A stretch of 49,238 nt of DNA, from NCBI GenBank assembly GCA_001938485.1, contig MQRK01219511.1, positions 1 through 49,238 on the forward strand, written 5' to 3'. Source of the stretch: Girardia tigrina (Eukaryota). The position numbers are program-made. Shown here one piece after another: positions 18,001-23,917 of this stretch; within the stretch, counting starts at the first letter, position 1; each line of letters opens with the position of its first letter.

Positions 18001-21000
18001 CTGCTCAATACAAAGTTTGATTTGTGGAGAACATAGTCAACCTTTTAACGGTTATCCATCATGATCTTCACAGTTGCACGGAAGTTTAGAAGTTTTTAGA
18101 AGTGGAAGTCGAATCAAAAACCGAGAGAGCAATAGCATGGGGATATTTGAAGACATTGGTGTATGAATCGCAGCAAGTTTGGCTTACTGGTATCATAGTT
18201 GATATTTTGAAAATATTTCATGATTTGCAAAAGCATGTATAGCTTAGCAACCTAATTCTACCAGAGGTAATAAGCAATAGAGATAAGGTACTTAGTAAAT
18301 TAGACTTTTTATCCAAAGCCCTCTATCCTGGTGGAGAGGAAGAGAAATTATAGCCAACAGGAAACAGAAACTCCACTTTAAGAGCTGTCAACATGAATGT
18401 GCTAACCACAGTAAATCATGATGCGGTGCGCCTCGAAATTGTACAATCGGCATATAATTATCTTATAGAGTGGTTTGATGTGGATCAAGAAGTAATCCGA
18501 GACATGTTAGCTGTTTTGCAAACAGCATAATTCAAAGCATTTATTATGGAAGAAGTGAAAATAATATGTTTGTTTCCAGAAGAATTCCAGGCTTGGAAAT
18601 ACTTTACCCACAATGACGTTGAAAACTTTGCTTCAGCTCTGCAGCGGTGTAATTTAAAAAGTAATATTGTCTTAGGAAACACTCACTCCTTACATCATGC
18701 TTGCAGAGAGACTTGTTTCTTTATACAACTTGAATTTTTAATCACATCGCATGAACATCTCAGCTGAGAGAGCCATCTCTTCCATCATGATCGGAATGAA
18801 TGACGAGGGGACATGTCTGTTTGATCCTCGCAGTACTGTGGTAGAGTTTTTATGGGTTGAAAAAAGTCGAGAAAGAAACCAAACCCTGGGTATTTCTTTA
18901 GAAAGAGACTTTGTTGCAAATTCTTTTTCCAAAAAGTAACAGGAGTTGATGTGTCGTGTAATATAACACGTGTTGAGCTGTTGAAAAAATGTTATGGGTC
19001 AGGTCACTTGTGCATGTTCTTTTAAACTTGAGAACACTTGATAAACAAACTGTTCGAAATAGGAAAAACCATTATAAAAACAGGAACAAATAACTGTTAC
19101 GACACGAATACGATTATATGACACTGAGAAAACCCTACTTCACGTACAACATCCAGCACGCATGAAAACCTTGTCGAGAGTTTGAAGGGATAATCAAATT
19201 ATTCTTTCCCTTCCTTTCCTTTTCATCTATTTTTTCCCTTCAATCATTCCGTTTAATCACTTTATTATTTAATTAATTATTTAAATTAACCCGCTCCATG
19301 TGGTCCTTTTATTTAATTTATACGTAGTAATATGTTGTTTTGCATTTTCTTTTGAGTGGGATTTTAAAATAAATAATCTTTCGGATATCTATACATGCGG
19401 ACGTTTGTATTCAACTTTTGGTTATACAAGTTATTAGTTACAATTATCTATGACAATTGAGAGCAAGACTACGAACCATAATCCATAACATGAATTTAAA
19501 CTCAGCAAAGTACAAGAATGGCACGAGCTTAAAAGTCGAGGAGCATAAAATAACATGAGCTTAAAATCAGAAGAGAAAAGATGATAGGAATTGAGAATCA
19601 GGCTAAAAGGAGACAAGAGTACGAAAGCCGAAAGTGGTATAAACGAACATGAGACTGACGAGAGTGAATGTAAACTCATATGTAAACTTGAACACATATA
19701 TTAGATTTAGATAAAATAATTAATTTCAATTCAAGATTGGCAAATGCAGTGACATATTTATAACGTTGTGAGGGATTTAATGGATTCGAGTATTAAAATA
19801 ACGGCACATGGTTGACTGAGGCGAGGAACCTTCTGGAGGTGACGCAGGCCGACCGCAGAATACGAGGGGCACGCGGATTGTCCGAGGTTTACTTCCTTAG
19901 GGCTCTCTTCGTCCAATATAACTAATAACAAATATTCAAACAACAATAAAAGTTTAATATCAGCCCCGTCGGATACTGAGACCACCAGTCGGGCAATACT
20001 AGTTACTGGTTTGAACCCGAAGGCGCTCCAAAGCGCATACAATTTGTTTGTATACGTGGAGGAGTGCGTCTGTTCCCTTAACAGTGGATAATTACCGAGA
20101 GGAATACGACGTACATGGGAGTTACCATTGAACTCTAAAACTGATGGGGGCTCTGAGTCCACGAAAATGTTGTCGAGAAAGGGTAACACGACATAACTGT
20201 TTTCCACCGAAAAAAGTTACTGTATTTTGGCACATGACCATTCCAGATTGCTTGTGCTACGAGTGAATATTTTTGAAAGAAAGCCTTGTCATATAAGATA
20301 CATATTAAATACATCATGTACACCAACTTATCACCTGGTATTTAGTACGTCCAAAATTGTGCCAAAGTTATAAATCAACGTTGAATATTCACTATTTTTT
20401 CGATCCAAACTTTAATAAAAATTAGAAATGTTTCGCAAAACGTATGTTGTACAAATCTTGTTATAATTAATACAAAAAAACTTTATTCATAAAAACAAAA
20501 TAACGTTAAAACTTGCCGATTTACAAAGCAGTTCATTTAGGTAACATGTTAATAGTATCTTCCTCATCAATATCGTAATATGATAATTTCTCGTCATCAT
20601 TTAAAATAATGCTATTAAATATAAATTGAATTCTGTTGGAATCGGTGTTCTGTTTGTTCATTTTCTTTATCAATTCCGATTTCACTTTCGAGATTATAGC
20701 GTCTCTGAATACCGTCATTTTATAAGATTTTGATGAATAAACGTCTCTGAAGAAAATCGAAACACTAGGGATATGTTTCGTCTTCAAAACGACCATTATA
20801 ATATCTCCATCGGAAATATTGTAATGTGATAATGTGTCAACGTCTATCAATAATTTTCCTTGAAAAACTAAATCTAAATTATTTGTATCAAATTGTCTGT
20901 TGTCGCTATTTATTTTTTTTAACAACTCCGATTTTGCGTACGAAATCAATCCAGTTTTGGGTAAACTTAACGTATATAGTGTTGATGAACGTATTTCTTT

Positions 21001-23917
21001 GAAACTAACTGAAATATGTTCGATATGTTTCATCTTCATAACAACCATTACTGTGTCTTCATCACCGATATTATAATGCAACAGTGTTCTATCATCATTT
21101 AATAAAGTTCCTTGAAAAACTAAAGCCATATCAGAATCAAAGCCTCTTTTTACGATATCATCACGTATTATTTTCAACAACGCCGATTTCACATTTGACA
21201 CAACAGTATTTTCTGGTAAATTTAATTCATAAACCTTTAATGATTTTGTTTCTTTAAGGAAAAATGTAATGCTTCTAACACTCTTAATTTTCCTGACCAT
21301 AATCACCAAATCTCTGTCGTTGATATCGTAATACGACAATGTCTTATCATTGGCCAATAAAGTTCCTTGAAAAACTAAATCAAATGTTTCACTTTTAAAG
21401 TTTCTTTGATCATTACTCATTACCTTTTCTAATTCCGATTTTACGTAGGATATTAAATTCGTGTTCATGAATGATAATGTATAAGTTTTAGTTGAGGTAA
21501 TTTCTCGGAAATTGAGTGAAACATCATTAGATGTTATAATTTTATTGATCATTATTATCGTATCACCATCGCCGATTTCGTACGACAAGAGCGATTCACT
21601 GTCGATCAATACATTTCCTTGAAAAATCAACACCAGTATATCATAAGTTAACTTACTATCAGTAATACTCATTTTAGTAATTAATTCTGATTTTAAATTC
21701 CGTACTAAGCTATTGTAAGGTAAATTTACCGAGTACACTTTATTTGAACTTCTTTCGCTTAGAAAAAGATTAATATTTTTGTTACTGTTCTGTCTTGAAG
21801 TCATAAATACGGACTGATCATTTAATCTACTCACATAATATTATTGTTTATTTCTAAATTTGATAATTGGTATTAACACGCACATTTTAGTAAACAATAA
21901 AACTGACTCGTATCATATATTTCAAATCAATTAAAGAAAAATTAAATGATCTTTATTAAAAATCTCTGATTTCCTTGTTATTTCATTTTCATTATTATAT
22001 GATATCGTGGAACCAAATTTAGAAAATAATAAATTATTTTGTATTTGTTGATTTGTTAATAAATGTGAAATTTTAAACAAACGATTTTTGAGATATTAAA
22101 TATTACTTGAAAAATCAATAATTAATTTTAAAATAATAATTAATTAATTTTGCTTAATTAACTTGGATAAATTTTACAATTTTGAAAAAAATATATTTAA
22201 AATAATTTTTTTCAATGTTTGTTTATAATTTTTTTTGACTGAATCAATAAATTTAAAATTAGAGAAAATTTTTAGTTGATTTAGATTATTAGGCAAACTA
22301 ATTTGAAAAATTATGTATCTACTTATAATTGTCGGAAAATTCAAATTTGAAATGAGTTTCGAATCGAAATAAAAAATTACATTGTCGACGGATAGTTTAC
22401 TGAACGAGTCGATGAAAAATTGTAACAATTAAACACTTTCGTTTTGTATTATGAATTTAATAGAGTATAACTTGACCGCTTTTTATTAGCGAAATAAAAC
22501 AGCAAATACCCAGCTCTTCAAAGAAATGTTTATTAACCATAAAGTTTATGGCATAAACGAGTTATTAAATATTCAAGTGATCTGAATTTTCAATCGATTG
22601 TTCATTTAATTCACGAATGTTATAATAGTGTCAATGAAGTACATTTGTCAAATGGTCGATGTAGTTAAAAATATCAAGTTTTTTCTCAGTCTTTCCGATT
22701 CTAATTCGTAATATCTCTATCCGATGGCACCATAAACTCGTTCGGCAGTTGTGGTGTGTTTGTTTATGTATCATTTGTGTAATTAGCGTGTCTGCCACTT
22801 ACAGTATTATCAAATTCCGAAATCATAATTTAACACCACAAAATTTATTTAAATTTATTTCATAAATTTTATTAAAATATATCGATTGTTATTACTGTAA
22901 GCATATTTTAAATAAGTATTTATTTTTATCATATTTTTACTCTAAATTTTAGTTTTTTAATTTATTTCTTTTAAATTTTCAAATTAAAAAATAAAAAACT
23001 ATTCTGACGAACCTTAAATTTAAACTAACCCCTTATAATTTGAATTTTAATATTTTATTCACAAAAAGTGTCATCTACACAAACCAGTCAGGAAGAGTCA
23101 ATATGGATTACGACAAAAAATAACAGACAGAGCACATACACATCCTATATGACACCCGATTACACCACCTTATCGAGAGAAAAATACTTGTAAACAAAGA
23201 TTTGCATTTCACAGTCAAATGACACACATAATTTTCAAAGCAATTTTCATACAATTTTAATACTACAAATCCGGACCACAGAATTTTGAGATTCAATTTT
23301 CCTTTCAACGACATCATTTTATTAAAATTTTTGTGAACCGTTCTAGCGTGCAAGAATATCATTTTAATCGGTGAAAAATCTTACCATCGACGTTCTACAC
23401 CAGTATCATTCCAGAAGTGCTCTAATTCAACTGCTAATTGTATCCAGCAAACCTAGATGGCTATATCATTTTGGTTATATCATATAATCACTAGGACCCT
23501 TTATAACTAAAACACTATCACTAAGGCGCTTAATCATTAAGAATCTTAATCACTAGACGTCTATTCACGTAATCCATTAATTAATGTTCAAACAAGCCTC
23601 TGTTCTATTTTGTTAAAAATATTCTATTAGTTATTACACAATTTAATTACACAATCACAATATAAATAAATAAATAAGGAGGTGCAATTATTGATTAAAT
23701 AAATTACTTAATTTTTAAAAGTAAGTGGGATGTTTCCATTTATTTTTTAATTTAAAATTTTTCAAAAATCGTTCTCCTTTATATGACGGAGAAAAAAGTG
23801 AAATTCAGCAAAACGTCAAAAAACAACTGCTTCATAATGAATTAAAAATTTTATCAAAATTGAAAAATAAATAAAATCAGATGTTTTAATAAAAAAATTT
23901 AATATAACAGCTATATA

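What the first reader, a model, noticed from the sequence alone, without database searches (positions are those of the whole stretch)
20533..21804. Penta-UBL with A-B-A-B-C architecture and erased di-Gly linkers
Seen: repeats start at 21774, 21522, 21270, 21015 and 20763. Repeats 1 and 3 share FL.E..S.KVY..NLP.N..V.N.KS. Repeats 2 and 4 share F.EI.S...YTLS...T.LISY.KSEL. Where ubiquitin has LRLRGG the linkers read NKIITS, RKIKSV, MKMKHI and LKTKHI, so the basic spacing is largely kept but GG is lost. Known: polyubiquitin repeats are homogenised and cleaved; ISG15 and FAT10 are di-UBL units. Inference: this arose by duplication of a di-UBL module and persists as an uncleavable chain.
Basis: partly seen in the sequence, partly recalled or inferred. 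Interest (0 to 1): 0.72.

Follow-up and report, generated by a model that had tools for sequence, protein, structure and literature searches.

The report
Five-domain ubiquitin-like protein without Gly-Gly
An intact gene encodes one chain of five diverged ubiquitin-like domains with no Gly-Gly cutting or attachment sites; it is a real but fairly ordinary member of a widespread, little-studied protein type.

Summary
An intact minus-strand ORF (first ATG 21804, stop 20533-20535; 423 aa, 48.7 kDa) encodes five ubiquitin-family domains at the stated starts (Pfam PF00240, E 1.1e-37, 5 stretches). The AlphaFold2 model (pLDDT 81) shows five beta-grasp units. Its best Foldseek matches are linear tetra-ubiquitin. 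The protein has no GG anywhere and ends at ubiquitin position 72.

The A-B-A-B-C reading is only weakly supported. The R1/R3 and R2/R4 likeness sits in the N-terminal half. R3/R4 is the closest pair overall. Bootstrap support for the two pairs is 34-49%.

The array looks maintained: 14 of 14 core positions are hydrophobic in all five repeats, and dN/dS is 0.17-0.62 in the nine pairs where dS could be estimated. No orthologue appeared in either protein collection.

GG-poor multi-UBL proteins are common: 80 of the 150 best hits have at most one RGG, and 14 have no GG.

Best reading: an uncleavable, non-conjugatable multivalent UBL protein that acts non-covalently. It is a new member of a known, uncharacterised kind, of moderate to low interest.

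The parts
20533..21804 (-). Single-exon CDS of the penta-UBL protein: 423 aa plus a TGA stop at 20533-20535, 48.7 kDa, pI 6.99, no GG, no Cys, no Trp
   Evidence: Pfam PF00240 E 1.1e-37 with 5 stretches
21775..21804 (-). 10-residue N-terminal leader before the first beta-strand
   Evidence: AF2 residues 1-4 have pLDDT below 50
21523..21774 (-). Repeat R1 (84 aa, A-type, pI 4.69); ends in linker NKIITS
   Evidence: AF2 elements E10-17 E23-29 H34-45 E57-61 H72-75 E82-87
21271..21522 (-). Repeat R2 (84 aa, B-type, pI 9.01); ends in linker RKIKSV
21016..21270 (-). Repeat R3 (85 aa, A-type in its N-half, pI 5.86); ends in linker MKMKHI
20764..21015 (-). Repeat R4 (84 aa, B-type in its N-half, pI 8.21); ends in linker LKTKHI; the only repeat with Lys at ubiquitin position 48
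20536..20763 (-). Repeat R5 (76 aa); ends ..MLPK at ubiquitin position 72, so it has no tail and no C-terminal Gly
20482..20487 (-). AATAAA hexamer 45 nt beyond the stop codon; a possible poly(A) signal
   Evidence: read; that this is the poly(A) consensus is recalled knowledge, and use of the site was not tested
12724..13047 (-). Neighbouring single-UBL ORF on the same strand (107 aa plus stop) that keeps ..SLTGG followed by 10 residues; a possible distant relative, not part of the same gene
   Evidence: Pfam PF00240 E 1.1e-08; HMMER aligns its GG plus tail to a ubiquitin-ubiquitin junction

Best explanation
This is a real, lineage-restricted protein-coding gene. It is translated as one 48.7-kDa polypeptide of five beta-grasp (ubiquitin-like) domains joined by short basic linkers.

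The array arose by internal duplication of a ubiquitin-like unit and has since diverged, to 30-50% identity between repeats and 20-33% to ubiquitin. The fold has been kept throughout.

No junction and not the C-terminus carries Gly-Gly. The chain therefore cannot be cut into monomers by ubiquitin-type proteases, and it cannot be activated and attached to other proteins.

The most likely mode of action is non-covalent. The protein would work as a multivalent string of UBL domains, each presenting an Ile44-type hydrophobic patch. These patches would dock onto ubiquitin- or UBL-binding partners such as proteasome receptors or UBA/UIM proteins. The protein would then act as an adaptor, scaffold or chain mimic.

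Shown: the ORF, the number of domains, the predicted fold, the absence of GG, and the residue states at ubiquitin positions. Inferred: non-cleavage, non-conjugation, and binding through the patch. Untested: expression.
For: - Intact ORF against a chance of about 3e-16; one of 2 ORFs of 150 aa or more in the window.
- Five PF00240 stretches.
- AF2 mean pLDDT 81.2, with the beta-beta-alpha-beta...beta order in 5 of 5 units. pTM 0.33 indicates no fixed arrangement between domains.
- Foldseek PDB: linear tetra-ubiquitin at E 1.9e-28 to 2.5e-26, and the USP7 five-UBL array at about 1e-16.
- The 14 ubiquitin core positions in the table are hydrophobic in 5 of 5 repeats. Position 44 is I/V in 5 of 5 and position 70 is I/V/L in 5 of 5. 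Position 68 is hydrophobic in 4 of 5, and position 8 in 3 of 5. K27 is kept in 5 of 5. K48 is kept in 1 of 5 and K63 in 0 of 5.
- dN/dS between repeats is 0.17-0.62 in 9 of 10 pairs, with dS about 1 or more; the tenth pair is saturated.
- R1-R5 group together against ubiquitin plus the neighbouring UBL in 83% of bootstraps.
- There is no GG, and the chain ends at ubiquitin position 72.
- A laboratory analogue exists. Engineered unanchored linear poly-ubiquitin in Drosophila has effects that depend on the Ile44 patch (PMC7348737; abstract and outline read).
Against: - No evidence of transcription or translation could be obtained with these tools.
- No orthologue or identical entry was found. 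None of 7999 scored candidates passed. The 150 best of 703 hits are all 23-35% identical. Neither of 2 exact look-ups was found. This is despite a transposase piece from the same window having a 96%-identical entry.
- The gene lies in transposon-rich, gene-poor DNA.
- dS is saturated, so the dN/dS values are rough.
- Retention of the hydrophobic patch could reflect packing between domains rather than partner binding.
- The residue numbering and the 'core' list for ubiquitin are recalled knowledge applied to the alignment.
Confidence: 0.55

Rival explanations
1. One reading: an A-B di-UBL module was duplicated to give A-B-A-B, with a fifth, separate unit C.
For: - The NJ point tree with outgroups pairs R1+R3 and R2+R4, with R5 apart.
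- The N-terminal 36 columns give R1R3 17/36 and R2R4 19/36, against 11-15/36 for the four other pairs among R1-R4.
- R1+R3 has 92% bootstrap in that half.
- Strict aa site patterns are 6, 3 and 1 in favour of 13|24.
- Repeat pI values alternate.
Against: - Whole-length bootstrap is 49%/34% and 39%/38% with outgroups.
- Nucleotide site patterns are 12, 16 and 7, which do not favour 13|24.
- R3/R4 is the closest pair (42/83 aa, dN 0.36).
- The C-terminal half shows no alternation.
- R5 sides with the B type rather than forming a separate class.
- A mosaic history, with gene conversion or convergent alternation, fits equally well.
Confidence: 0.3
2. A non-functional relic: a decaying polyubiquitin or UBL copy, or a never-expressed orphan ORF, in transposon-rich DNA.
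For: - No orthologue was detected.
- The surroundings are dominated by broken DNA transposons.
- The neighbouring UBL ORF at 12724-13047 looks like a truncated remnant.
Against: - 423 stop-free codons in 31% GC DNA (p about 3e-16), even though the repeats have diverged to 48-65% nucleotide identity.
- The hydrophobic core is kept in all 70 cells (14 positions in 5 repeats).
- dN/dS is below 1 in the 9 of 10 pairs where dS could be estimated.
Confidence: 0.15
3. A precursor cut into UBL monomers at the non-GG basic linkers by some other protease.
For: Lys at ubiquitin position 72 is kept in 5 of 5 repeats, and Lys at position 74 in 3 of 4 linkers.
Against: - No known ubiquitin or UBL processing site is present.
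- The linkers differ from each other, and R1's reads NKIITS.
- The released units would still lack a C-terminal Gly for conjugation.
Confidence: 0.05
4. A gene carried by a transposon or a virus-like element rather than a host gene.
For: - 63-nt repeat copies lie on both sides, at 16511-16573 and 22976-23037. A repeat of about 390 nt begins about 330 nt beyond the stop.
- Giant-virus multi-UBL proteins appear in the viral fold search.
Against: - The flanking repeats are dispersed families with further copies elsewhere in the window.
- No transposase, capsid or polymerase domain lies between them.
- The viral matches are generic ubiquitin folds at 9-22% identity.
- ORF GC (29.3%) matches the flanks (30.0-33.3%).
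Confidence: 0.05

Closest known systems
Polyubiquitin precursors (UBB/UBC type, Pfam PF00240)
   Same: Head-to-tail beta-grasp units in one ORF. They are the best sequence and fold matches: PDB linear tetra-ubiquitin at phmmer E 1.7e-17 and Foldseek E 1.9e-28.
   Different: The units here are 20-33% identical to ubiquitin and 30-50% to each other, rather than near-identical. The period is 84 aa, not 76. There is no RGG at any junction or at the end. K48 and K63 are mostly lost.
ISG15 and FAT10 (di-UBL modifiers)
   Same: Tandem UBL domains stay joined in the mature protein. ISG15 structures are matched at Foldseek E about 1e-11 to 1e-12.
   Different: Those proteins have two domains and a C-terminal Gly-Gly used for conjugation (recalled knowledge). 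This one has five domains and no C-terminal Gly. No specific sequence kinship was seen, since ubiquitin scores better.
USP7 C-terminal HUBL array (five UBL domains)
   Same: Five uncleaved UBL folds in a row. Foldseek E 1.8e-16 to 1.8e-15.
   Different: The HUBL array is part of a deubiquitinase. This protein has no other domain. Identity is only 10-12%.
Stand-alone divergent multi-UBL proteins in sequence databases (uncharacterised; e.g. hits P0017, P0049, and P0151, which its source names 'ubiquitin-like protein [Rhizophagus irregularis]')
   Same: Proteins made only of ubiquitin-family domains with few or no Gly-Gly. 80 of the 150 best hits have at most one RGG and 14 of 150 have no GG. All 14 GG-free hits match PF00240, with 2-14 passing stretches, and no family defining another kind of domain.
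   Different: Each is only 23-35% identical to this protein, so none is an orthologue. The 84-aa period and the partial A/B alternation are features of this one.
Engineered non-cleavable linear poly-ubiquitin (Drosophila Ub6 transgenes, PMC7348737)
   Same: A genetically encoded head-to-tail chain that cannot be taken apart. Its effects depend on the Ile44 patch (abstract read).
   Different: That chain is artificial and made of true ubiquitin. This one is natural and highly diverged.

Membership tests
Ubiquitin family / beta-grasp (Pfam PF00240) | Profile match above the curated cut-off | tested here: met
   128 bits against a cut-off of 25.4, E 1.1e-37, 5 stretches
Ubiquitin family / beta-grasp (Pfam PF00240) | Beta-grasp fold in each unit | tested here: met
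   AF2 pLDDT 81.2, with beta-beta-alpha-beta...beta in 5 of 5 units. Foldseek matches linear poly-ubiquitin at E about 1e-28. This is a prediction only.
Polyubiquitin precursor | Each unit ends in Arg-Gly-Gly and is followed directly by the next unit | tested here: not met
   0 of 4 junctions carry it; there is no GG in the 423 aa
Polyubiquitin precursor | Units (near-)identical to ubiquitin and to each other | tested here: not met
   15/76 to 25/75 identity to ubiquitin; 30-50% between repeats
Polyubiquitin precursor | Processed to monomers in vivo | not testable with these tools
   No expression or proteomic data were reachable
Conjugatable UBL modifiers (ISG15 / FAT10 type) | Exposed or exposable C-terminal Gly(-Gly) | tested here: not met
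   The protein ends ..MLPK at ubiquitin position 72
Conjugatable UBL modifiers (ISG15 / FAT10 type) | Two UBL domains | tested here: not met
   Five domains
Integral UBL arrays of enzymes (USP7 HUBL type) | The UBL array is attached to a catalytic or other functional domain | tested here: not met
   Only ubiquitin-fold families pass in Pfam. ORFs within about 2 kb upstream have no family match.
Stand-alone GG-poor multi-UBL proteins (uncurated class) | Three or more UBL domains, no other domain, at most one RGG | tested here: met
   for this protein; for the comparison set
Stand-alone GG-poor multi-UBL proteins (uncurated class) | Specific orthology to a named member | tested here: not met
   The best hits are 23-35% identical. 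The profile search gave only 2 hits, at E about 1e-4.

The most novel reading that the evidence does not exclude
A naturally evolved, protease-resistant 'hard-wired' linear UBL chain. Its alternating acidic (A) and basic (B) domain types would form a defined multivalent code, read by linear-chain or proteasomal ubiquitin receptors. It would act as a decoy or tuner of chain-dependent signalling or degradation in an invertebrate lineage, as a natural counterpart of the engineered uncleavable Ub chains studied in flies.
Probability: 0.12. Interest if true: 0.6.

Novelty: new member of a known kind. Interest (0 to 1): 0.33.

Why it matters
If the protein is expressed, it is a natural experiment in what a cell does with a ubiquitin-like chain that can be neither cut nor attached. 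It keeps the fold and most of the Ile44-type patch, but it has dropped the Gly-Gly ends and the main chain-building lysines. That separates recognition of ubiquitin-like chains from conjugation.

Such GG-poor multi-UBL proteins are numerous in sequence databases. In my five literature searches no listed title or abstract start described a stand-alone one. A characterised example would therefore annotate many proteins. On its own, this copy is one more diverged member with no orthologue and no expression evidence.

Tried and rejected
- **Word-indexed protein search, whole protein:** none of 7999 scored candidates passed. The same search with the five-repeat profile, set to longer proteins, gave 2 weak hits at E about 1e-4, which are not relatives.
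- **Exact look-up** of the penta-UBL and of the neighbouring UBL: neither of the 2 is in the collection.
- **ESM Atlas:** only generic ubiquitin-family clusters, best score 0.92, and no structure search was possible.
- **Tandem Repeats Finder** on 20300-22000: 0 arrays, because the repeats are too diverged at DNA level.
- **RNA scans of the window:** Rfam 0 matches and tRNA scan 0 genes, so the dispersed repeat next to the gene is not a recognisable tRNA-derived element.
- **Viral fold library:** only generic ubiquitin folds, including giant-virus multi-UBL proteins at 9-22% identity. I rejected a viral origin.
- **Kinship of the neighbouring UBL with the array:** not shown. It is 19/84 to 26/84 identical to the repeats and 22/76 to ubiquitin, and it groups with ubiquitin in 83% of bootstraps.
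- **Possible short 5' intron** just upstream of the ATG: I saw it by eye and dropped it, because no tool predicts it and no relative shares it. No exon-joining step was done.
- **Literature:** searches were seen as listings and abstract starts only. One paper, PMC7348737, was read as abstract and outline. None describes a stand-alone GG-less penta-UBL.
- **Second structure job:** not used. Without a control pair it could not decide whether A-B forms a rigid module.
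Full report
**1. The observation**

The window is AT-rich (24-40% GC in 2-kb bins) and holds 9 runs of N, 478 bases in all, which I left alone. It is poor in long ORFs: only 2 of 150 aa or more. One of them is the finding, 20533..21834 on the minus strand.

- The first in-frame ATG is at 21804, preceded by an in-frame TAA at 21841-21843. The stop is TGA at 20533-20535, and an AATAAA follows 45 nt later.
- The protein from that ATG has 423 aa, 48,675 Da and pI 6.99. It has no Cys, no Trp and no GG.
- Given the window's base composition, 435 stop-free codons have a chance of about 3e-16.
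They align almost without gaps and share 12 invariant columns.

**2. What the units are**

- Pfam reports the ubiquitin family at E 1.1e-37 (128 bits, cut-off 25.4) in five stretches.
- Against PDB sequences, 288 distinct chains match at E up to 1. The best are linear poly-ubiquitins, for example tetra-ubiquitin 5b83_A at E 1.7e-17.
- An AlphaFold2 model was built on an alignment of the protein with 49 of the 150 listed hits. Its mean pLDDT is 81.2 and its pTM is 0.33. It shows the order strand-strand-helix-strand...strand five times. The residues with pLDDT below 50 are the N-terminal 1-4 and 89-92, at the R1/R2 junction.
- Foldseek against the PDB puts linear tetra-ubiquitin first (E 1.9e-28 to 2.5e-26), then tri-ubiquitin. 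The five-UBL array of USP7 follows at about 1e-16, then di-ubiquitin and ISG15.
- The low pTM fits beads on a string with no fixed packing between domains. I had no access to the error matrix.

**3. Residue states against ubiquitin**

I aligned the repeats to a ubiquitin unit taken from stored hit P0001. The position numbering and the list of core positions are recalled knowledge.

- The 14 core positions tabulated are hydrophobic in all five repeats.
- The Ile44-type patch is largely kept. Position 44 is I/V in 5 of 5 and position 70 is I/V/L in 5 of 5.
  - Position 68 reads I, I, M, M, N.
  - Position 8 reads R, I, T, I, V.
  - So the B-type repeats and R5 keep all or most of the patch, while R1 and R3 have lost position 8.
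- K27 is kept in 5 of 5. K48 is kept only in R4. K63 is D/E in 5 of 5. K29 is lost in 5 of 5.
- Position 72 is Lys in 5 of 5, and position 74 is Lys in 3 of 4 linkers.
- Positions 75/76 read TS, SV, HI and HI.
- R5 ends at position 72.
- The longer period (84 against 76 aa) comes mainly from a longer helix-to-strand-3 segment and two spacer residues.

**4. Is it maintained?**

- Nucleotide identity between repeats is 48-65%.
- Nei-Gojobori dN/dS is 0.17-0.62 in 9 of 10 pairs. The tenth pair is saturated.
- dS is about 1 or more, so these ratios are rough.
- An intact ORF, a fully conserved core and dN below dS together argue for purifying selection on the fold since the duplications.

**5. The A-B-A-B-C claim**

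Pairwise identities:

| Pair | Identity |
|---|---|
| R1R3 | 33/83 |
| R2R4 | 41/84 |
| R3R4 | 42/83 |
| R2R3 | 34/83 |
| Other pairs | 24-30 identical of 75-84 aligned |

- In alignment columns 1-36, R1R3 (17/36) and R2R4 (19/36) exceed the four other pairs among R1-R4 (11-15/36). In columns 49-86 there is no alternation, and R3R4 is best at 23/38.
- NJ bootstrap over 2000 replicates gives R1+R3 49% and R2+R4 34% on all columns. On the N-half it gives R1+R3 92% but R2+R5 63%. On the C-half it gives R3+R4 57%.
Support is only 39% and 38%. The five repeats as a group are separated from the two outgroups in 83% of replicates.
- Strict two-plus-two site patterns among R1-R4 are 6 (13|24), 3 and 1 for amino acids, but 12, 16 and 7 for nucleotides.
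- Repeat pI values alternate: 4.69, 9.01, 5.86, 8.21, then 6.39.
- Conclusion: there is a visible alternation confined to the first strand-strand-helix part. It is compatible with a duplicated two-unit module but not established. The C-terminal halves tell a different story, either gene conversion or unequal rates.

**6. Relatives**

- The exhaustive HMMER search of 1.84 billion cluster representatives gave 703 hits at E up to 1e-3. Of these, 174 are at 1e-10 or better and 5 at 1e-30 or better. All 150 listed hits are 23-35% identical. The top ones are canonical polyubiquitins, which score by adding up domains.
- The word-indexed search found nothing among 7999 scored candidates, and the exact sequence is absent.
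- Per-domain BLASTP against the 150 hits gives best matches of about 24-36% over alignments of 58 aa or more. Some alignments of about 30-50 aa reach 37-50%.
- The protein therefore has no detectable orthologue. A transposase piece from the same window, in contrast, has a 96%-identical entry.
- The type is not rare. 80 of the 150 best hits have at most one RGG and 14 have no GG. All 14 consist of ubiquitin-family domains only.

**7. Mechanism**

The need of ubiquitin-type proteases and of E1 enzymes for the C-terminal Gly-Gly is established knowledge, recalled here and not tested. On that basis, a chain without GG and ending at position 72 should stay whole and cannot be conjugated.

What remains is non-covalent action. 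The protein offers five UBL domains on flexible short linkers, most of them with an Ile44-type patch, which allows avid binding to ubiquitin- or UBL-binding partners.

Engineered uncleavable linear poly-ubiquitin in flies shows that such chains are read by the cell through the Ile44 patch (PMC7348737; abstract and outline read).

I put about 0.8 on 'real gene, five beta-grasp domains, not cleaved at GG, not conjugated'. I put about 0.3 on the specific multivalent-binder role. The combined figure is 0.55.

**8. Context**

Most of the window is broken DNA transposons:
- a Tc1-like copy;
- a Mos1-like mariner;
- two pogo/Tigger-like copies;
- a MULE transposase piece.

The window also holds:
- one ORF with Gag-type zinc knuckles, at 48271-48525 on the minus strand. 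It is the only retroelement- or virus-like signal I found, and I describe it only;
- a weak C-type-lectin piece.

Named relatives of the pogo piece are about 50% identical and come from ticks, an aphid and a scorpion. The source is therefore probably an invertebrate animal. This is a lead only, since transposons move between species. Nothing looked human.

A second UBL ORF lies 7.5 kb downstream on the same strand (12724-13047, 107 aa). It keeps ..SLTGG followed by 10 residues that HMMER aligns to the start of the next ubiquitin unit. It looks like a truncated two-unit UBL with an intact junction. Its kinship to the array is not shown.

**9. What stayed unchecked**

- Expression.
- Orthologous loci in related genomes.
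- Contacts between domains in the model.
- Paper supplements were not consulted.

**10. Verdict**

This is a new member of a known but uncharacterised kind. Interest is 0.33.

Noticed in passing
window 12724-13047 (-): A second ubiquitin-family ORF (107 aa, Pfam E 1.1e-08) on the same strand, 7.5 kb downstream of the penta-UBL. It keeps ..SLTGG and then has 10 residues that HMMER aligns to the start of a following ubiquitin unit, like a truncated two-unit UBL. N runs lie further downstream and were left alone.
   Followed up: partly
window 19813-20202, 29609-30004, 30948-31330; inverted partial copy 43525-43645: A dispersed repeat of about 390 nt (74-79% identity between copies). One copy begins about 330 nt beyond the penta-UBL stop codon. 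It has no Rfam, tRNA or Pfam match.
   Followed up: partly
window 16511-16573, 22976-23037; inverted copy 48981-49041: A repeat of about 63 nt (86-87% identity). Two direct copies bracket the penta-UBL locus at a distance, and the third copy lies near the window end, so it is a dispersed family rather than the ends of one element.
   Followed up: no
window 777-2127 (+): A Tc1-like DNA transposon with 55-nt inverted ends (82% complementary) and transposase pieces (HTH_Tnp_Tc3_2, DDE_3) in different frames. The transposase gene is broken by at least one frame change.
   Followed up: no
window 3040-3849 (+): A Mos1-like mariner transposase (HTH_48 E 2.2e-19; Transposase_1 E 1.2e-26) in two ORF pieces, with at least one in-frame stop. 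No later part of the catalytic domain was detected.
   Followed up: no
window 6842-8323 (+) and 46611-47589 (+): Two pogo/Tigger-like transposase copies (CENP-B_N, HTH_Tnp_Tc5, DDE_1). The first is split into pieces by at least one frame change and one in-frame stop and contains an N run. One of its pieces is 96% identical to an unnamed database entry and about 50% identical to named tick, aphid and scorpion proteins. The second copy is broken into at least five pieces.
   Followed up: partly
window 33817-34470 (+): The second-longest ORF of the window (218 codons from stop to stop) carries a MULE transposase domain (E 7.3e-07).
   Followed up: no
window 48271-48525 (-): An 85-aa ORF with CCHC zinc knuckles (PF00098 E 4e-05, two stretches), as in retroelement Gag proteins. 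It is the only retroelement- or virus-like signal I found. No reverse transcriptase, protease or integrase piece was seen among the ORFs scanned, and the element may run off the window end.
   Followed up: partly
window 39117-39293 (-), within 38000-40000: A weak C-type lectin match (E 6.5e-04, below Pfam's cut-off) in a stretch with strongly negative GC skew (-0.31). It may be an exon of a minus-strand host gene.
   Followed up: no
window 29031-29203 and 41145-41321: Inverted repeat arms of about 175 nt at 90% identity, 12 kb apart. Their nature is unknown.
   Followed up: no
window 42866-43086: Perfect 50-nt inverted arms (about 82 nt at 98% identity by blastn) around a (TA)n tract and an N run; MITE-like or a foldback. 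The masked part was not examined.
   Followed up: no
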